NCBI RefSeq assembly: GCF_054482595.1
Contig: NZ_CM137008.1
Direction: 5' to 3' (one strand)
Length of the DNA stretch: 64,000 nt
The position numbers and the translations under genes were made by a program. Below are positions 5,284 to 13,346 of this stretch, in pieces (within the stretch, counting starts at the first letter, position 1; the number at the start of each line of letters is the position of its first letter). The notes beneath the pieces are model-generated. The model was not told the DNA's origin. It did no database searches and saw only the letters and a program-made list of their open reading frames with translations.

Positions 5284-5400
5284 CGGCACACCGTGATCTT
5301 TCCCTGGTCCCTGTCCCGGATTGTAGTACCGGTGCCAGTTGTAGTGCAGTTCGGATTCGTCGTCATACTGCTAGCCCGGATGGCGGAGCAGTTGCTCTAG
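5284..5400 (-). pseudogene. Decayed fragment of an Rhs core end (orphan rhs remnant), interrupted by stops
   Basis: Minus-strand translation gives ...QYDDESELHYNWHRYYNPGQG..., resembling the Rhs core terminus [12 protein letters not shown]; stop codons on both sides; no intact downstream ORF. Confidence 0.5.
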
Positions 5401-5442: not shown

Positions 5443-5856
5443 TCAATATCCTAACGCTGGTCTTTTGCCTGTATTAACTGATTTAGCTGGTTTGCTACAT
5501 ATTAATGCCTTCAGATTTTCCCTTTCCTTGTCTGTGATACTGTCACAAACCCTACTAGCCCATTCTACTTCACTCTTCTCCAGGCATTCTATTTTCTTAT
5601 TGCTCATTGTTCTAATGTTTGGTGTTGCATCTCCATTTAATAACATCCATGTTTCATTTTTCTTCATAAAACATCTTCCATTATGTTCAAAGATATTAGG
5701 TGTGAATATATTATCAGAATCCCATGTTACGACTTGCTCGAGGGCTATATTATCTTGATAGTCCATGCCAGCATTATAATAATCACAAGATATAATTATC
5801 ATGGAAATAATTATCATGGAAATAATTATCACTAATATCTTCCCAAGCATTTCCAT
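5443..5856 (-). CDS. Putative Rhs immunity protein, predicted lipoprotein
   Basis: 137-aa ORF whose ATG directly abuts the rhs stop codon; AT-rich; N-terminal hydrophobic segment ending in a lipobox-like IISC with Asp at +2. Confidence 0.55.
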   Translation of the reverse strand: MEMLGKILVIIISMIIISMIIISCDYYNAGMDYQDNIALEQVVTWDSDNIFTPNIFEHNGRCFMKKNETWMLLNGDATPNIRTMSNKKIECLEKSEVEWASRVCDSITDKERENLKALICSKPAKSVNTGKRPALGY

Positions 5857-8800
5857 TTACTTTACCTCTTGAAATTCAAATGGGAATCCAGTGAAAGGAC
5901 CTTTAGGCATAATATATCTTTGATATCCATAAAGCTCACCGAGCACTTGTAGGCTTATAGGCGCATTTGTATTCATAGAGGGGTTGTTAAACCCGCACGC
6001 CTCAAAAATCATGTTCGTTCGGCTAAAACAATTATTTAAAACAGGAAGAGGCCCGAGGTTAATAGTTTTTAGTTTTTTATTAAGGTCTATTGCCTTATTC
6101 ATCATACATTGTTCTTCTTCATCTGTTGTATCTATTATCCAAATCCAGGTATCTCTGCGGGATTGTATCTTTTTAAAATAATCAGAGACAGAGGCTCCCA
6201 TCTCATCCCCAGTTCCCGAACTCATTAATCCATATCGATTTGCCGCCGCAGCATGCCCAAAAGGATTATCAGGAACGGGGCCGTTACCTATTATCATAGT
6301 ACTAAGCCCTAATGGATCAACGTGTTGCACTGGATTCAGCGGATATTGGTACAGATTCCATCCCCCCTTCAGCCCTATCGGGTCCTGAGTGATATACCGC
6401 CCCTGCAACGGATCGTAGTACCGGTTCCGGTTGTAGTACAGCCCCGACTCCTTATCATACTGCTGCCCCGGCAGCCGGTACGGCTGGTGCAGGTGATGCG
6501 GGTTCTCCTCATTAAGCTGGTTGCCCCATTCATCATACTCCGCGCTCCACGCCGTATTGCCGTCTTCACTGATAAGCGCCAGCGGCAGGCCCCGGTGGTC
6601 GCAGTGGTAAAGATGAACTTTTCTCGCCGGTGTGTATTCCGGCTCCATCTGTCTGGCCAGTTGCTCCACCGTCAGCCCGCACTGCGCAAGCCACGCCCGG
6701 CTTTCACTGCTCACGCGGTCTGCCCGGATTTCTTCCTCCAGTCTGTCCAGCAGCCGCACCAGTTCAGCCGGAAATACCACGCCGTGCCCGTCCTCGCTCC
6801 CTTCCTGCTGCATCTTCTCCGCCAGGCTGCGGCGCTGCGCTTTCTCCCGCTCGCCGTTCTCTGTCTCGCCCCGGATGAGCGGCGTGAAGCTTCCCGGCTC
6901 GTATACCGTCTGGATACGTGTGGTGTCAGTCTGCACCGTCGTCAGCCTGTCGCCGTCCCACCCGTACCATGTCTCCTCCGGTTTACGCGACAGCGACATC
7001 CATCCCGTCAGGTCACGCCCGCGACGCCACACCCGTTTCGCCATTCGCCGTCCCAGCGGGTCGTAGAGGTAGCAGCTCTCGACCAGTGGCTCGCCATGCT
7101 GTATCCGCGTGTAGAACACCAGGCGGTGCTGGCTGTCGTAGTGATAGTGGTGGGTGCGCTCGTCGTGCATCCGGATAACCCCTTCCGGGATACGGTCCGT
7201 CTTCTCCGCCAGCCTGCCGTATTCATCGTAGCGGTAGACATAGTGCGCATCTTCCGCGATGCGGTTATCCGGCCACGCCGTGAAGGTGCTGTCCGGGTGC
7301 AGTTCCGGGTCCGGCAGCCGGTTTCCTGCCGGGTCCGTCGCATACGGGATATCGATATCCAGGTTCGCTGCCGTGGTGTGGACGCCCGTCAGCCTTCCCG
7401 TGCCGCTGTAACGGTACTCCCGGCTCTCCTGCGGGCCGCTGATGCGGATTAGCTGTCCGTTGTCGTTCCAGTCGTAGTCATGGTCAAGCTGCGGAAGGTT
7501 CAGGTGCCTGCTCCGGAGCTGGCCGCTGGTATTCCAGGCGGTGGCAAGTTCATATGCCTCCCCGCCGAAGCTGCGGGCCGTCTCACGGTGCAGCCGGTCC
7601 CGCGTGTACTCGACCAGCGGCGTTCCGCCCAGCTTCATCCCCGCAAGATAACCGCTGCCATACGTCAGCCACTCCACCCGCGGCAGGCTGTCCGGCGTGA
7701 CGCGGTTTGCCAGACCCTGTTCGTTGTATGCGTGCTCTGTCTCATGCTGCCACAGCAGTTCCCCCGTCTCCGGGTTATGCACCGTCTGGCGTTCGCCGGC
7801 CAGGCGACCCTTATCATCATAACCGTAATGCACCGCCACCTGATGGCCTTCGCTCAGGTGGCTGATGTCTGTCAGCCAGCCGTGGCCGTCATACTGCCAC
7901 TGCTCTGCCGGTTCACCGTTCACCGTGCGGTGAGTGATACGGTCCGATTCGTCGTAGTGCCAGAGGGTGACAAGTCCCTCATCCTCACTCTGTGTGAGTT
8001 TTCCGGTCAGGTCATAATGATAACGCTGCGTCCGCCCGTCAAAGCCGCCCTGCTGTACCAGGCGGTCCAGCGCATCGTAGCTGAAGTCGCTGTGACTGCC
8101 GTTCTCGTTGGTCAGGCTGATGACACGTCCGGCAGCATCGTACTCCATACTGCGCGTCAGCCCGCCCTGCGTGGTGCTGACCGCCTTTCCCCACGCATCG
8201 TACTGTGTCTCGCTCCGGTTGCCGTCCGGGGTGATAACGGCAGTCAGGTCGCCTGCGGCGTTGTATTCATACCGCGTTTCACGGCCCTGTGCGTCTTTCA
8301 CCGAGGTTAACCGGCCACGGTTGTCATAGCGGCGGTAAAGGCTGATGCCTTCCTCGCGGTGGACCGCCGTCATCTGGCCGAAGCGGTCGTATTCATAGCG
8401 GGTCTGGTAGCCCGAGCAGTCGGTGAACGCCAGCAACTGACCGTAGCGGCTCCACGTCATCTGCCGGGTGCTGCCCGTCGCATCTGTTGTCGTGGCCGGT
8501 AATTCACTGTGCGCATCATCATAGCGGTAGCGTACTGTCTCCCCGCTGCGCGATGTCTCCGTTACCAGCCTGTCCAGTTCATCATATGCCCGGCGGCTCT
8601 CCAGCCCGTCCGGGGACACCACCGCCGTCAGCTGGTTCCCGTCGTTATAGTAAAATTTCGTCTCCCGCCCGTCCGGTGTGGTGATGTCCGTGATATCGCC
8701 GGACACCACATTCAGACCGTACTCTGTCCGCCGTCCCGCCGCGTCCGTCTGCGCCGTGAGCCTTCCTGCCGCGTCATACCCGCTGTGCGTGACGCTGCCA

Positions 8801-10062
8801 TCCGCCAGTTCTTTTTTCACCACCCGTTTCAGCCCGCCTTCACCTTCTGTATGCAGCACCTCACGCCGGTTCAGGCTGTCGGTGACGGTGATGCGGTCCT
8901 GCTCATACTGGTAGCGGTAACTCAGGCCTGCCGGGTTAAGCTGCTCCACCACCCGCCCGGTATCGTCGTAGCGGTAGCGCATCTCCGGCCTTCCCGCATA
9001 ACGGTGCCCCACCATCCGGCCCGGGTGCTGCGCGTCATACGTGAAAGCGCGCACCTGTGTCCCGCTGCGGTCATATACCGCCAGCAGTTCACCGGCTTCC
9101 GTATACGTGTACCGCGCCAGTGGCGCTCCGGGCAGGCTCTCCGGGTATGCCGGGTCGTGCATCAGCCACACCGCCAAAAGGCGGATACCCCTGTCGGGGC
9201 CGTATTCGGTACCGGGCAGTGTGTCGGGGAACGCTGAGGCTGAGAGAGGGCGGGAACGGTCAGAAGAAGATAGCGAAGAGGTGCGGGCCTCTTCCGCACG
9301 CTGCGCCTGCGTGGTCAGCACCAGACGGAACTCCCGCCCGGCACCGTCCGTCACGCCGGTGATTTCCCCGGCCAGGTCACCGGCGGCCTCACGCCGGTAC
9401 GTCAGCGTCCGCCCGAAGCGGTCCGCCATCCCGGTAAGCACCCGGTACGGCGGCAGCGGCGCTGGCAGTACGTCCTCAGCACCCGGCACCCGCTCAGACC
9501 ACCCCAGTATCCACCACGGCCCCTGTGCGCTGTTGGTCGCCAGGTAAAGATGCGGGCTTAACCGGATATCCGGCGGCAGCGACGCCCACAGCCGTGCCAG
9601 CGTATGGCCGTCCGGCTGCGTTGCCTTACCGCCACGCACCAGCCACAGGGACTCGCTGCGGCTGTACACCGCCTCACCCGGCAGCAGCGGCTCAAAGTGA
9701 ATGCTCCGTCCGCCGTTGTCGTTGAGTACCAGTGCATCATCGCGTAGCTGTAAGCGGATATCAGAAGGCGCTTTCCAGCCGGGGCCAAAAATCCCCACCG
9801 GTGCAGGCGTCTTCGTCCGGTAGCTGCTGTAGGTGCGGGAGAGAATGAACGGCAGCGGGCCGGGCAGCGCAAGGTCCGTCTCGCCGGGCAGCACCTTCGC
9901 CCCCAGTAGCGGGTTTACCGGGTTAGAATAGGTGATACCGCCCGGACACACCGAGCACGCCACACCGGTCGGCGCGCCTATCAGTACCCCCGCTGACCCC
10001 TGGACTATCGGACCGCCGTACTGGGTCATATCTCCCTGGCGTGCCGCTGGTTTTCCGCTCAT
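5857..10062 (-). CDS. rhs: Rhs-family polymorphic toxin with N-terminal PAAR-like domain, YD-repeat core and variable C-terminal toxin tip
   Basis: 1401-aa ORF; N-terminus [11 protein letters not shown]...; many YD repeats; core terminus PxxxxDPLGL near 6305 followed by a roughly 148-aa AT-rich tip. Confidence 0.9.
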
Positions 10063-10129: not shown

Positions 10130-12238
10130 TCAGTACTCTCTCATATCCGGCGTATCCTGCTTTTCATCAGGTGTCTTCGGTGGGGATTTCGAGGCTGCAC
10201 AGTTCAAGTTAATCAACAGTGAGTCACCATTAACCTGCTCCTTACCCTGCAAATGAATTTTTGTGCCGTTGAGAAAAATTTGTCCGTCCTTCGTCAGCAC
10301 CAGCCTTGCCTTACCACAGCAGAGCTCCAGATGCTCCCCGGCAGAGTAAATCGCTGTCTGTCCGGTATCATCCTTCTTCGTTTTACCCACGGTGAAGGTG
10401 ACGTTATTTCCGACTTTAACGTCATATCCTTTCCCCACAAGCAGCGATTTATTTACCCCCACCTGCGAGGACTGCATCAGCGCCACCGAGGTGTTCATAA
10501 TGCCACCTACCGTCGTCTGATACGCCACGCCCACGGTCAGCGCACGAACAAGTCCAATCGTTTCCACCTGAACAGAACCCACTTTAATTATCTGGTTACT
10601 GCCCACCGTCTCTATCTGGTTAACACCCACCGTCTGTATCTGATTGTTGGTAACCGCAATCATCTGATTGTTGCCAATGGTTTCAGCATGGTTGTTTATC
10701 ACATCCGTGGTGCGGTTATTCAGCACCTCGGTGTTCATGTTCTTCTGCGCGTGGATGTAGACCTGTTCTTTCCCTGTCGCATCGTCAAACTTCAGTTCAT
10801 TAAACCCGCTGCCCTTATAGGTTTTCGAACGAATGGTCATCTGCGTCTTCGTCCCCGGCAGGCTGCCGGGGGTGCGGTTTTCCTGGTGGTAGGTACGCCC
10901 CATAATAATCGGCTGGTCCGGATCGCCGTTGAGGAAGTCCACAATCACCTCCTGACCCACACGCGGTATCGCCAGGTTGCCAAAGCCGGTGCCTGCCCAC
11001 GCCTGTGCCACACGGATCCAGCATGAACTGTCCTGGTTTGACGGGTTATAGCGGTCCCAGTTAAATTTCACCCGCACGCGGCCATGTTCATCACAGAAGA
11101 TTTCCTCGCCTGCCGGTCCCGTCACGACGGCGCTCTGCGGGCCGTCCACCATCGGTTTCAGCAACGGCTGTGGCCGCCATGTCCGGTCTGCCGGGATTAC
11201 CGCAAAGTGGTTATTCAGCGTGGTACCTGAACCACTGCGTCCCGGCACCGCCTGCGGCTGCTCGCCGTGCAGTTCACTTGCCACCACCTGCCATTCCCGG
11301 TTCAGGTTCGCCTGCGGATGCCCCGTCAGCGCAATTCGCCGTCCCGGCCATATCTCCGGAGAACGGCTTGTTCCGCGCGCCACTTCTGCGTTGTTTCGCC
11401 AGCCATCCATCTGCCAGCGGGCAAAGTTCTGCCCGTGGGCACCCTTGAAACGTCCGGGGTAGTCATACACTTCATACTGTGTGCGCTGGTAATCCTGGTA
11501 CTGGCCTTCCTGATCAAAACGCCCTGCCCAGCCGGGTCGTTTAAAGGTGTAGTCTTTGGTCACCACGGAAGAAGGGCGGATTTGTGCGCTGTAGCGAAAC
11601 TGGCTGATGCATAGGGTGCTCACCTCGGTACGGGTGTTCGGGTTCCAGGGGATCTCAAAGGACTCCGGCAGATAACGCACGGTGTCGCACAGGACCAGGC
11701 TCTGGTCGATACTTTTTTGCGCGTGCTCCTCATAAAAGAAGATGCCTTCCTCCGCCGCCATCCGGCACAGGAAATCGTAATCGGTTTCGCCGTACTGGAC
11801 ACAAAACTCACGGGAAGGATGTGGCTCGCTGAACAGCGGGCTCCACTCGGTAACCCCGTTTTCCTGCAATATCGTGCCGAGGATGCTTTCGATGTCCTCA
11901 TTCTGGAAGATACGGAAGTTCTGGCGCAGCCCTGTGCGCCACAGCGGTGGGCACACCTTCATGCTGTACAGCATCTGGTTTTTGTCGTTCTCCCCCAGTT
12001 CAAACCAGGTCACCATACCTTTCACCCGGCGCTGTACGTCATCGCCCTGCCATACCGTCAGGTAGGCCATTTTGTCCAGCACCTGCGCAAATTCAAGGGA
12101 AAGAAACTGCTGACTGACCAGAGAAAGGTCGAGGGAAAAAAGTGAAGAGAGTGACTGGGAGAGGTGAAAGGAAACCACCGCAAAAGCATCCGGTGGCAGG
12201 CCGTCCACTTCAAGTGTGAAACGTAATCCGGTTGACAT
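10130..12238 (-). CDS. vgrG: Type VI secretion spike protein VgrG
   Basis: ORF 10130..12274; start placed at MSTGLRFTLEVDGLPPDAF with a ggagg SD just upstream; gp27/gp5-like sequence with C-terminal Val/Gly-rich repeats. Confidence 0.85.
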   Translation of the reverse strand: MSTGLRFTLEVDGLPPDAFAVVSFHLSQSLSSLFSLDLSLVSQQFLSLEFAQVLDKMAYLTVWQGDDVQRRVKGMVTWFELGENDKNQMLYSMKVCPPLWRTGLRQNFRIFQNEDIESILGTILQENGVTEWSPLFSEPHPSREFCVQYGETDYDFLCRMAAEEGIFFYEEHAQKSIDQSLVLCDTVRYLPESFEIPWNPNTRTEVSTLCISQFRYSAQIRPSSVVTKDYTFKRPGWAGRFDQEGQYQDYQRTQYEVYDYPGRFKGAHGQNFARWQMDGWRNNAEVARGTSRSPEIWPGRRIALTGHPQANLNREWQVVASELHGEQPQAVPGRSGSGTTLNNHFAVIPADRTWRPQPLLKPMVDGPQSAVVTGPAGEEIFCDEHGRVRVKFNWDRYNPSNQDSSCWIRVAQAWAGTGFGNLAIPRVGQEVIVDFLNGDPDQPIIMGRTYHQENRTPGSLPGTKTQMTIRSKTYKGSGFNELKFDDATGKEQVYIHAQKNMNTEVLNNRTTDVINNHAETIGNNQMIAVTNNQIQTVGVNQIETVGSNQIIKVGSVQVETIGLVRALTVGVAYQTTVGGIMNTSVALMQSSQVGVNKSLLVGKGYDVKVGNNVTFTVGKTKKDDTGQTAIYSAGEHLELCCGKARLVLTKDGQIFLNGTKIHLQGKEQVNGDSLLINLNCAASKSPPKTPDEKQDTPDMREY

Positions 12239-13346
12239 AGCAACCTCCGTGAAAATGAATAATAATCCGCACATATTGCATGTACAACATGTCGGGCGGA
12301 TGAGATAAGCGAGTCGACATCTGGCGTTACCGGGGAATATCAGAAAAATGTCATGGTTATGTGATGATTTAGTCTGGGATTTTACTTCAGAGAAACGGGT
12401 GTCTGTTTAGTCAACAAAATAATCACAAACGCAACGGATGGGTTCTCGACGTTATTCACGACAGGCTCGTACATTACAGCGAGTAATAAAAAACCCGATA
12501 TGCAAAGTCAAACCAATATTCATAATGTCTTTTTATTCACAACAATAAATAATTTAATAACAATCATTGAAATGAATGATGATTTGTATAAGGAATATAC
12601 GCTACCGCCCCACCCTGATAACATGATCTGCACATTGCCATCTTAACGTCGTTAAACACTGGCTTAATAGTGGATATTTCAAATTAGGAATTTATTAAAT
12701 TCACCTGATGAATATCATAAGCAAATAGCATAGAAAATAATGACAACTCCCCCGAGGGGACCATTTCCAAAGCACTGCACCACCACCTGGTGCCCGGATG
12801 ATCTTGCTTCAGTGGTAAGAGTACCTGATTCATTGTTCCCAAAATGGTGTTTTCCCCTGCCCCTCCAATAATGTGCAGCTCTCACGTGATAATCTATTGA
12901 TTAGGTTATATTAAGAATCAATATTTAAAATACATCCATTTTCTTGAATAAATCAACATGTTTATTAATCAATTGCTGTTTTAGCTCTGACTCATCAAGC
13001 TCTCCATATTTGTCCTACAGATAATTGCGAATAAATACAGAGAACGCCATTTATCCTTTTAGCATACCTGCCGGATATTTTTATTTGTATTAATATTAAT
13101 TGCATCTCCAACTCCGAGCATATCCATCATTAAAAAAATTTTGAGATTATAGAATACCTGTGATAACAAGTGAAACATCTGCACAATGTGAATAGTTAGT
13201 TTCTTTTCAGAGGAAATGAAATAGACACGCTGAATGAAAGGGAGAGTGATATAAATTAAAAAACATAACGTGAATTTAATTAATTACGCCCATCATTGTG
13301 GATAAAGTTACTGAATAATAAATAACATAATCTTCTGGTATCCCAC

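What the first reader, a model, noticed from the sequence alone, without database searches (positions are those of the whole stretch)
5443..5856. Putative immunity protein looks like an inner-membrane lipoprotein and carries a 15-bp tandem duplication
The N-terminus MEMLGKILVIIISMIIISMIIISC-D has a basic residue, a hydrophobic core and a lipobox-like IISC followed by Asp at +2, the classical inner-membrane retention signal. A periplasm-facing immunity protein suggests that the toxin acts on the envelope rather than in the cytoplasm. The coding DNA contains an exact tandem repeat of atggaaataattatc (5791..5820), which duplicates SMIII in the signal peptide.
Basis: partly seen in the sequence, partly recalled or inferred. 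Interest (0 to 1): 0.6.

Follow-up and report, generated by a model that had tools for sequence, protein, structure and literature searches.

The report
Lipoprotein immunity gene for Rhs toxin
This small E. coli gene very probably encodes a membrane-anchored lipoprotein that protects the cell from its own Rhs toxin, a lipid- or envelope-attacking enzyme, and the 15-base duplication in it is a harmless-looking variant found in one strain lineage.

Summary
ORF 5443-5856 (-), 137 aa, starts right after the stop codon of a 1401-aa Rhs gene in the E. coli vgrG-rhsE island. It contains a perfect 15-bp tandem repeat of 2.7 copies at 5792-5831.

The lipoprotein reading is supported in silico. Across 17 homologues down to 35% identity, in Escherichia, Salmonella, Citrobacter and Obesumbacterium, the signal peptides diverge freely. 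The lipobox Cys, the Asp at +2 and four further cysteines stay invariant.

The envelope-target idea is supported independently. The 148-aa Rhs tip models with high confidence as a permuted NlpC/P60 His-Cys hydrolase. Its closest structures are YiiX and TseH, a V. cholerae T6SS effector toxic only when expressed in the periplasm. It also resembles the recently described Tox-Act1 phospholipase family. Genes downstream of distant relatives encode small membrane proteins.

The duplication is a minority polymorphism. Of 562 E. coli genomes, 546 have 1.7 copies, 15 have 2.7 and one has 3.7. All expanded alleles sit in one locus haplotype, and the change probably arose by slippage between 10-nt direct repeats.

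Verdict: a new, uncharacterised immunity family within a known kind of system. No experiment yet shows processing, localisation or protection. Moderate-to-low interest.

The parts
5443..5856 (-). Immunity gene (137 aa plus stop), a predicted lipoprotein. The mature domain is residues 24-137 and carries four conserved cysteines (62, 91, 104, 120).
   Evidence: ORF list and translation. RefSeq annotates it as hypothetical protein WP_021556798.1. Homologue alignment. Synteny and co-divergence with the toxin.
5785..5856 (-). Signal peptide, codons 1-24. The n-region is MEMLGK, the h-region is ILVIIISMIIISMI and the lipobox is I-I-S-C, with Cys24 at 5785-5787. Asp25 (+2) is at 5782-5784.
   Evidence: Pattern match and hydropathy. 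C24 and D25 are invariant in 17 homologues.
5792..5831 (.). Perfect 15-bp tandem repeat, 2.7 copies. It is polymorphic among E. coli genomes (1.7, 2.7 or 3.7 copies).
   Evidence: TRF, exact-unit positions, shuffles, population counts, alignments.
5865..5870 (-). AAGAGG Shine-Dalgarno for the immunity gene. It lies inside the last codons of the Rhs gene, 8 nt before the ATG.
   Evidence: Read directly from the sequence.
5860..6303 (-). Rhs C-terminal tip, 148 aa (Rhs residues 1254-1401). It is a permuted NlpC/P60 His-Cys hydrolase toxin. The putative catalytic residues are His17 and Cys92 of the tip (Rhs His1270 and Cys1345).
5857..10062 (-). Full Rhs effector gene, 1401 aa. The core is GC-rich (63.5% GC) and the tip AT-rich (39% GC).
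10130..12274 (-). VgrG, the T6SS spike protein, immediately upstream of the Rhs gene.
   Evidence: ORF. RefSeq annotation 'type VI secretion system tip protein VgrG' for the identical locus.
5284..5370 (-). Relic of an Rhs core 3' end (QYDDESELHYNWHRYYNPGQG...), downstream of the immunity gene. It is probably the trace of an earlier tip displacement.
   Evidence: Three-frame translation.

Best explanation
ORF 5443-5856 (-) is the cognate immunity gene of the Rhs effector encoded directly upstream, within a vgrG-rhs-immunity T6SS module at the E. coli rhsE locus.

The proposed mechanism is as follows. The product is exported through Sec. It is lipid-modified at Cys24 and cleaved by signal peptidase II. 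Because Asp follows the lipid-modified Cys, it probably stays on the periplasmic face of the inner membrane. Its roughly 113-residue mature domain probably carries two disulfides. There it binds and blocks the 148-residue Rhs tip. The tip is a permuted NlpC/P60 His-Cys hydrolase that acts from the periplasm on an envelope substrate, most likely the acyl esters of membrane phospholipids, as Tox-Act1 does.

The extra 15 bp is a replication-slippage duplication between 10-nt direct repeats. It lengthens the uncharged stretch of the signal peptide between Lys6 and Cys24 from 12 to 17 residues, and it is most likely neutral.

Shown here: the gene order, the conserved motifs, the toxin fold and the polymorphism. 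Inferred: processing, localisation, neutralisation and the toxin's substrate.
For: Module. VgrG, Rhs and the ORF are contiguous on one strand, the Rhs TAA stop abuts the ORF's ATG, and an SD sequence precedes it.

Cognate pair. In Salmonella, Obesumbacterium, Citrobacter and one further NCBI assembly (organism not shown), the homologous ORF always sits directly after or overlapping a homologous Rhs tip. The two diverge together: toxin identity 83/72/60/61% against immunity identity 82/55/43/41%.

Lipoprotein.
- A lipoprotein pattern matches all three alleles.
- C24 and D25 are invariant across 17 homologues although their signal peptides differ.
- No other hydrophobic segment is present.
- Four further invariant cysteines fit an oxidising compartment.
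- UniProt labels two relatives 'Lipoprotein'.
- Asp+2 is the Lol-avoidance signal of enterobacteria (PMC6469965).

Toxin.
- It has 152 distant relatives, mostly the C-terminal ends of Rhs proteins.
- N13, G16, H17, G25, G30, R50 and C92 are invariant.
- The AF2 model has pLDDT 91.6.
- TseH and Tox-Act1 are toxic only when expressed in the periplasm, and Tox-Act1 is a phospholipase.
- The only recurrent non-Rhs Pfam hit among relatives is Lnb_N/DUF4105, which the Tox-Act1 paper describes as the sister clade of Tox-Act1.
- C66 and C103 co-occur perfectly, 7 sequences with both and 26 with neither, which suggests a disulfide.
- Downstream genes of five distant relatives encode 2-TM or N-terminally anchored small proteins.

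Duplication.
- Of 562 genomes, 546 carry 1.7 copies, 15 carry 2.7 and one carries 3.7.
- The carriers identified by name are the 14 closest genomes over 11 kb, at 98.3% identity or more against 96.4% for the next.
- The 1.7-copy allele retains a 10-nt direct repeat at spacing 15.
Against: - No experiment of any kind supports processing, localisation or protection.
- No SignalP or LipoP run was possible.
- The +3 residue is Tyr rather than the Asp, Glu or Gln usual in E. coli inner-membrane lipoproteins, so the strength of retention is unknown.
- The immunity domain has no Pfam, PDB or fold relative outside its own small family, so its mode of inhibition is unknown.
- The tip itself matches no Pfam family.
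- I could not obtain a Tox-Act1 sequence to test clade membership.
- Characterised Tox-Act1 uses a 2-TM immunity protein, not a lipoprotein.
- The Tox-Act1 paper notes that Rhs fusions usually carry cytoplasm-acting toxins.
- TseH was first interpreted as a cell-wall hydrolase, so the substrate class is open.
Confidence: 0.65

Rival explanations
1. The N-terminus is not cleaved and serves as a single transmembrane signal-anchor. The immunity protein is then a bitopic inner-membrane protein rather than a lipoprotein. This would apply most to the duplicated alleles, whose uncharged stretch reaches 17-22 residues.
For: The hydrophobic stretch is very strong: mean Kyte-Doolittle hydropathy is about 2.9 over 19 residues. 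Downstream proteins of distant toxin relatives use uncleaved TM anchors or two TM helices. AF2 draws residues 2-48 as one continuous helix.
Against: The [ST/A]-C-D motif is invariant across homologues with unrelated signal peptides. That is unexpected for a plain TM anchor. The common allele has only 12 uncharged residues before the Cys, too few to span a membrane. UniProt's own annotation names two relatives 'Lipoprotein'.
Confidence: 0.1
2. The pairing is as described, but the toxin is a peptidoglycan amidase or endopeptidase, as originally proposed for TseH, rather than a lipid-targeting enzyme. The immunity protein would still work in the periplasm.
Against: The catalytic order is His before Cys, that is, permuted. 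Permuted members (YiiX-like, LRAT/PLAAT, RID, Lnb, Tox-Act1) act on acyl groups. TseH itself showed phospholipase activity in a later assay. The best structural matches are all permuted members. Membrane-embedded immunity proteins in distant relatives fit a membrane target.
Confidence: 0.2
3. The lipoprotein is sent to the outer membrane despite Asp+2, because Tyr at +3 weakens Lol avoidance. [quoted passage not shown]
For: Strong E. coli retention signals usually have Asp, Glu or Gln at +3. The rule is not absolute.
Against: Asp+2 is invariant in all 17 homologues, all from Enterobacterales, where the rule applies. No basic residue is adjacent.
Confidence: 0.15
4. The 15-bp copy-number change is adaptive. 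It would tune targeting (Sec versus SRP), processing rate or the amount of immunity protein, acting as a contingency locus.
For: Three copy-number states exist. A further expansion, to 3.7 copies, occurred within the same haplotype. More hydrophobic signal peptides are known to favour SRP (general knowledge).
Against: Expanded alleles are 16 of 562 genomes and sit in a single haplotype. The unit is a multiple of 3, so there is no on/off switching. No other family member carries a repeat. The one 3.7-copy strain has an IS-disrupted Rhs, where selection on immunity is probably relaxed.
Confidence: 0.1
5. The ORF is not an immunity gene, or the toxin acts in the cytoplasm and the lipobox is coincidental.
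For: Most characterised Rhs tips are cytoplasm-acting nucleases or ADP-ribosyltransferases. No functional data exist.
Against: Adjacency and co-divergence are conserved in four genera. The toxin fold belongs to periplasm-acting relatives. The export signal is invariant.
Confidence: 0.03

Closest known systems
Tox-Act1 / Imm-Act1 (Salmonella SPI-6 T6SS effector-immunity pair; PMC12994826)
   Same: Both are permuted NlpC/P60 toxins with catalytic His before Cys and a weak relationship to DUF4105/Lnb_N. The family is often fused to Rhs ends, including one E. coli Rhs listed by the authors. Immunity is membrane-associated. Distant relatives of the window's toxin are followed by 2-TM proteins like Imm-Act1.
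   Different: The window's immunity protein is a lipoprotein with a soluble, cysteine-rich domain, not a 2-TM protein. The His-to-Cys spacing is 75 residues, against 108 in Tox-Act1 (H43/C151). Clade membership could not be tested because no Tox-Act1 sequence was available. The accessions of the window toxin's named relatives are not in the paper's homologue tables.
TseH / TsiH (Vibrio cholerae T6SS; PDB 6v98; PMC4453574)
   Different: Sequence identity in the structural alignment is 7%. TseH is a free-standing 223-aa protein, not an Rhs tip. No sequence-level match was found.
YiiX-like permuted papain-fold proteins (PDB 2if6, 3kw0)
   Different: These are housekeeping or unknown-function proteins, not toxins. 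Identity is 9-13%, and they are not part of a polymorphic-toxin module.
Tle phospholipases with Tli lipoprotein immunity proteins (T6SS)
   Same: The logic is the same: a periplasm-acting, membrane-lipid-targeting effector is neutralised by a periplasmic, often lipid-anchored, immunity protein (general knowledge; compare the Tle-Tli preprint listed).
   Different: The enzyme folds are unrelated: Tle proteins are alpha/beta-hydrolase or PLD enzymes. No sequence or fold similarity of the immunity protein to any known family was found.
E. coli K-12 rhsE-ydcD locus
   Same: The chromosomal position is the same, next to pptA, yddH, nhoA, yddE and narV. The architecture is the same: an Rhs core, a variable tip and a small downstream gene.
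   Different: In K-12 rhsE is a pseudogene with a different tip and downstream gene (my own knowledge, not tested here). In the window the module is intact with its vgrG.

Membership tests
Bacterial lipoprotein (signal peptidase II substrate; PROSITE PS51257-type rule) | A positively charged residue within the first 7 residues | tested here: met
   Lys6.
Bacterial lipoprotein (signal peptidase II substrate; PROSITE PS51257-type rule) | An uncharged hydrophobic core followed by a lipobox [LVI][ASTVI][GAS]-C, with the Cys at position 15-35 | tested here: met
   The lipobox is I-I-S-C with Cys24. The pattern matches all three alleles, with Cys at 19, 24 or 29. The lipobox Cys is invariant in 17 homologues with diverged signal peptides.
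Bacterial lipoprotein (signal peptidase II substrate; PROSITE PS51257-type rule) | Actual diacylglyceryl modification and LspA cleavage | not testable with these tools
   Needs globomycin sensitivity or palmitate labelling.
Enterobacterial inner-membrane-retained lipoprotein (Lol avoidance) | Asp at +2 of the mature protein | tested here: met
   Asp25 is invariant in 17 homologues. The rule is as described in PMC6469965.
Enterobacterial inner-membrane-retained lipoprotein (Lol avoidance) | +3 usually Asp, Glu or Gln, with no adjacent basic residue | tested here: inconclusive
   +3 is Tyr, conserved in all but one homologue (P0001 has Cys), and +4 is an invariant Tyr; neither is basic. The effect of Tyr at +3 is unknown to me.
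Enterobacterial inner-membrane-retained lipoprotein (Lol avoidance) | Fractionates with the inner membrane | not testable with these tools
   Needs an experiment.
T6SS VgrG-Rhs effector / immunity module | vgrG next to an rhs gene that has a YD-repeat core ending in a DPxGL motif followed by a variable tip | tested here: met
   VgrG at 10130-12274. NCBIfam RHS_core and Rhs_assc_core match. DPLGL at Rhs residue 1249. RefSeq annotation.
T6SS VgrG-Rhs effector / immunity module | A small gene directly downstream that co-varies with the tip | tested here: met
   Adjacent or overlapping in five loci. Toxin and immunity identities fall together.
T6SS VgrG-Rhs effector / immunity module | The downstream gene neutralises the tip, and delivery depends on the T6SS | not testable with these tools
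   Needs an experiment.
Permuted NlpC/P60 superfamily (YiiX / LRAT / TseH / Tox-Act1 / DUF4105 clades) | Papain-like fold with circular permutation: the catalytic His lies N-terminal to the catalytic Cys | tested here: met
Tox-Act1 clade specifically | Sequence-level membership: profile or phylogenetic placement with Tox-Act1 (STox_15) | tested here: inconclusive
   No Tox-Act1 sequence could be obtained. The E. coli example QMP79959.1 is absent from the collection. Named relatives are not in the paper's tables. The only link is a weak Lnb_N/DUF4105 signal: 1 of 80 relatives at E <= 0.001 and 6 of 80 at E <= 0.1. The window tip itself has no Pfam hit.
Tox-Act1 clade specifically | Cognate immunity protein with two transmembrane helices (Imm-Act1) | tested here: not met
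   The window's immunity protein has one N-terminal hydrophobic segment and a lipobox. Two-TM proteins do follow distant relatives at L006, L008 and L009.
Phase-variable contingency locus (tandem-repeat switching) | A change in repeat copy number switches expression on and off by frameshift | tested here: not met
   The unit is 15 bp and in frame. All three alleles keep the full ORF.

The most novel reading that the evidence does not exclude
The enterobacterial branch of a lipid-targeting, permuted NlpC/P60 Rhs toxin family has replaced the ancestral 2-TM immunity protein with a new inner-membrane lipoprotein. The first residues after the lipid anchor (C-D-Y-Y-x-A) are the most conserved block of that protein. 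The lipidated N-terminus may itself take part in inhibition, for example by occupying the toxin's acyl-binding groove as a substrate mimic. The toxin family's nearest Pfam relative is a lipoprotein N-acyltransferase (Lnb). If so, this would also be a clear case of an Rhs cage delivering a toxin that acts in the periplasm rather than the cytoplasm.
Probability: 0.1. Interest if true: 0.65.

Novelty: new member of a known kind. Interest (0 to 1): 0.3.

Why it matters
It adds an uncharacterised immunity family, with no Pfam entry and no known fold, found here only in Enterobacterales, to the set of T6SS effector-immunity pairs. About 10% of complete E. coli genomes carry it. It also gives an E. 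coli example of an Rhs effector whose tip most likely works in the periplasm on membrane lipids. Most characterised Rhs tips are cytoplasm-acting, so the pair is a convenient system for asking how Rhs-encapsulated toxins are released on the periplasmic side. The three natural signal-peptide lengths (19, 24 and 29 residues) form a ready-made allelic series for testing how h-region length affects lipoprotein targeting. Nothing here overturns current understanding.

Tried and rejected
- Pfam, NCBIfam and PDB sequence searches with the immunity protein, and Pfam and PDB searches with its family profile, gave only noise (NANM and YjhT kelch-like hits at E of about 0.01-0.09).
- Pfam and PDB sequence searches with the toxin tip and its profile gave nothing real. 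The protein A and 17beta-HSD hits are low-complexity or short matches.
- I tried to fetch the E. coli Tox-Act1 homologue cited in PMC12994826 (CP057959.1), but it is not in the collection.
- I searched the paper's supplements for the accessions of the toxin's named relatives and found none.
- A literature search for the RefSeq accessions of the pair gave no papers.
- A cluster look-up of ten short toxin relatives, made in the hope of finding a free-standing Salmonella Tox-Act1, returned mostly metagenomic Rhs fragments.
- I considered a promoter role for the repeat, because sigma-70-like hexamers overlap it. I dismissed this because such matches are expected in 34% GC DNA and the repeat lies inside the coding sequence.
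- I considered a sequencing or assembly artefact. I rejected it because the same allele is present in at least 12 independent complete genomes from different hosts and countries.

Full report
**Where the window comes from.** The window is Escherichia coli. An 11-kb stretch around the finding is 100% identical to strains XH990, THO-010, SM107, W619 and GF66.1. The finding lies in the rhsE region, next to narW, narV (annotated narI), yddE, nhoA, yddH and pptA. On the minus strand the order is:
- VgrG, 10130-12274;
- a 1401-aa Rhs protein, 5857-10062;
- the ORF in question, 5443-5856;
- a short relic of another Rhs core end, about 5284-5370.

**The observation.** Its ATG directly follows the Rhs TAA stop, and an AAGAGG Shine-Dalgarno lies 8 nt upstream, inside the end of the Rhs gene.

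Tandem Repeats Finder gives a perfect period-15 array of 2.7 copies at 5792-5831.

The repeat is not chance. A run of 25 self-matches at offset 15 compares with a maximum of 13 in 1000 mononucleotide shuffles and 12 in 1000 codon shuffles of the ORF.

**The duplication is a polymorphism.**
- A 140-nt query around the repeat found the locus in 562 of 5426 complete E. coli genomes. Of these, 15 match at 99% or more (2.7 copies), one at 90-95% (3.7 copies; strain 2824) and 546 at 80-90% (125 nt; 1.7 copies).
- Alignments show clean insertions or deletions of one 15-nt unit, giving proteins of 132, 137 and 142 aa that are otherwise identical.
- The 14 genomes closest to the window over 11 kb (98.3% or more) include every expanded-allele carrier identified by name. 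The next best genome is 96.4% identical and has 1.7 copies. The expansion therefore arose once, in one locus haplotype.
- Strain 2824 shares flanking protein accessions with XH990, so it belongs to that haplotype and then gained another unit.
- The common allele still carries a 10-nt direct repeat at spacing 15. That is a plausible substrate for replication slippage.
- No other homologue in any genus carries a repeat here.
- The unit is in frame, so it cannot act as an on/off switch.
- The uncharged stretch between Lys6 and the lipobox Cys grows from 12 to 17 to 22 residues, and the Cys moves from position 19 to 24 to 29. All three alleles still satisfy a PROSITE-style lipoprotein pattern.
- I see no evidence that the change is anything but neutral. 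In the 3.7-copy strain the Rhs gene is interrupted by ISEc1.

**Is it a lipoprotein?** No signal-peptide predictor was available, so I relied on conservation.
- The first protein search found a narrow family. A profile search extended it to 17 full-length members at 35-99% identity. The named members are from E. coli, Salmonella enterica, Citrobacter freundii and Obesumbacterium proteus; the rest are unnamed metagenomic sequences.
- The signal peptides differ completely between branches, for example MEMLGKILVIIISMIIISC against MRxxKRLILLLTIFLVAC. The Cys and the following Asp are nevertheless invariant, the next Tyr is nearly invariant (Cys in one homologue) and the Tyr after it is invariant.
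- Four further cysteines (62, 91, 104, 120) are also invariant. That fits two disulfides in an oxidising compartment.
- No other hydrophobic segment exists.
- UniProt labels two family members 'Lipoprotein'.
- Asp at +2 is the accepted Lol-avoidance (inner-membrane retention) signal in enterobacteria. It is usually followed by Asp, Glu or Gln and has no adjacent basic residue (PMC6469965). Here +3 is Tyr, so retention is likely but its strength is untested.

**Is it the immunity gene?** In a Salmonella assembly, two contigs carrying the Citrobacter-type protein, an Obesumbacterium assembly and one further NCBI assembly, the homologue always lies directly after or overlapping an Rhs tip homologous to the window's tip. 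The two proteins diverge together: toxin identity 83, 72, 60 and 61% against immunity identity 82, 55, 43 and 41%. That is the expected signature of a cognate effector-immunity pair.

**What does the toxin do?**
- The tip is the 148 residues after DPLGL at Rhs 1249-1253. It has no Pfam, NCBIfam or PDB sequence match.
- An exhaustive phmmer search found 152 relatives at E <= 0.001, mostly at the C-termini of long Rhs/YD proteins.
- In a 33-sequence alignment, N13, G16, H17, G25, G30, R50 and C92 are invariant.
- The AlphaFold2 model is confident: pLDDT 91.6, pTM 0.86.
- These are all permuted papain/NlpC-P60 enzymes in which His precedes Cys, as in the tip.

[quoted passage not shown] A 2026 paper describes Tox-Act1, a permuted NlpC/P60 T6SS toxin of Salmonella (PMC12994826):
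- it is toxic only in the periplasm;
- it releases lysophospholipids;
- its immunity protein has two TM helices;
- its clade is sister to DUF4105/Lnb;
- its homologues include many Rhs fusions, among them one E. coli Rhs.

Three further observations link the window's toxin to that picture.
- The only non-Rhs Pfam family hit repeatedly by the toxin's relatives is Lnb_N/DUF4105, and the signal is weak: 1 of 80 at E <= 0.001 and 6 of 80 at E <= 0.1.
- The genes after five distant relatives encode small proteins with two TM helices (L006, L008, L009) or an N-terminal anchor (L004, L007).
- C66 and C103 of the tip co-occur perfectly, with 7 sequences carrying both and 26 carrying neither. That suggests a disulfide and hence an extracytoplasmic site of action.

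I could not obtain a Tox-Act1 sequence, so placement in that clade remains inferred.

**Conclusion.** The ORF is most likely a lipoprotein immunity protein on the periplasmic face of the inner membrane. It is paired with an Rhs-borne, permuted NlpC/P60 hydrolase that attacks the envelope from the periplasm, most plausibly membrane phospholipids.

The system belongs to a known kind: a periplasm-acting T6SS effector with a periplasmic, lipid-anchored immunity protein. The immunity family itself is undescribed, and it differs from the 2-TM immunity protein of characterised Tox-Act1.

The 15-bp duplication is real but is a rare, single-lineage slippage product with no sign of function. No step of processing, localisation, neutralisation or enzymology has been shown experimentally.

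Noticed in passing
window 5284-5370 (-): A relic of an Rhs core 3' end (QYDDESELHYNWHRYYNPGQGPGK...) lies between the immunity gene and pptA. It has no tip or immunity gene of its own and looks like the trace of an earlier C-terminal displacement event.
   Followed up: partly
window 5860-6303 (-); alignment A4: Cys66 and Cys103 of the toxin tip co-occur perfectly across the family: 7 sequences have both and 26 have neither. The pattern suggests a lineage-specific disulfide and possible DsbA dependence in the target cell.
   Followed up: partly
window 5713-5787 (-), residues 24-48 of the ORF: The first residues of the mature lipoprotein (C-D-Y-Y-x-A...Y..D...L) are among the most conserved in the family, whereas, from general knowledge, the tether after a lipoprotein's lipid-modified Cys is usually variable. 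AF2 models them as a helix continuous with the signal peptide.
   Followed up: no
L001 439-3444 (strain 2824); also hits H113-H130: The Rhs gene at this locus is often damaged. In strain 2824 ISEc1 (ydcC) truncates it, in Res13-Sevr-PER07-33 it has an internal stop, and many genomes carry a group II intron (ltrA), ISAs1, IS66 or IS1 in the locus. The immunity gene stays intact.
   Followed up: partly
L008, about 7620-7840 (+): An ORF not among the called genes for the contig (MNKTIVTTAVLWALGTLAYAFVYIS...RLPWLFLGLVVLIVAERIF), with two hydrophobic segments, lies directly after a 2374-aa Rhs that carries a distant relative of the toxin. It is probably an Imm-Act1-like immunity gene missed by gene calling.
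   Followed up: partly
L010 1035-3628, L011 6345-6722, L013 4675-5004: In Salmonella, Citrobacter and Obesumbacterium the toxin-immunity pair sits in arrays of orphan Rhs fragments with further small genes, one of which matches Imm58. These look like typical orphan toxin-immunity stacks.
   Followed up: no
window 5443-10062: There is a sharp composition break inside one operon. The Rhs core is 63.5% GC, the tip 39.1% and the immunity gene 33.6%, against 50.4% for the whole window.
   Followed up: yes
hit H100 (NZ_CP182142.1), and the one plasmid-borne place: One genome matches only 71% of the 140-nt repeat-region query, in two pieces. One of the 562 matches is on a plasmid rather than a chromosome. 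I examined neither.
   Followed up: no
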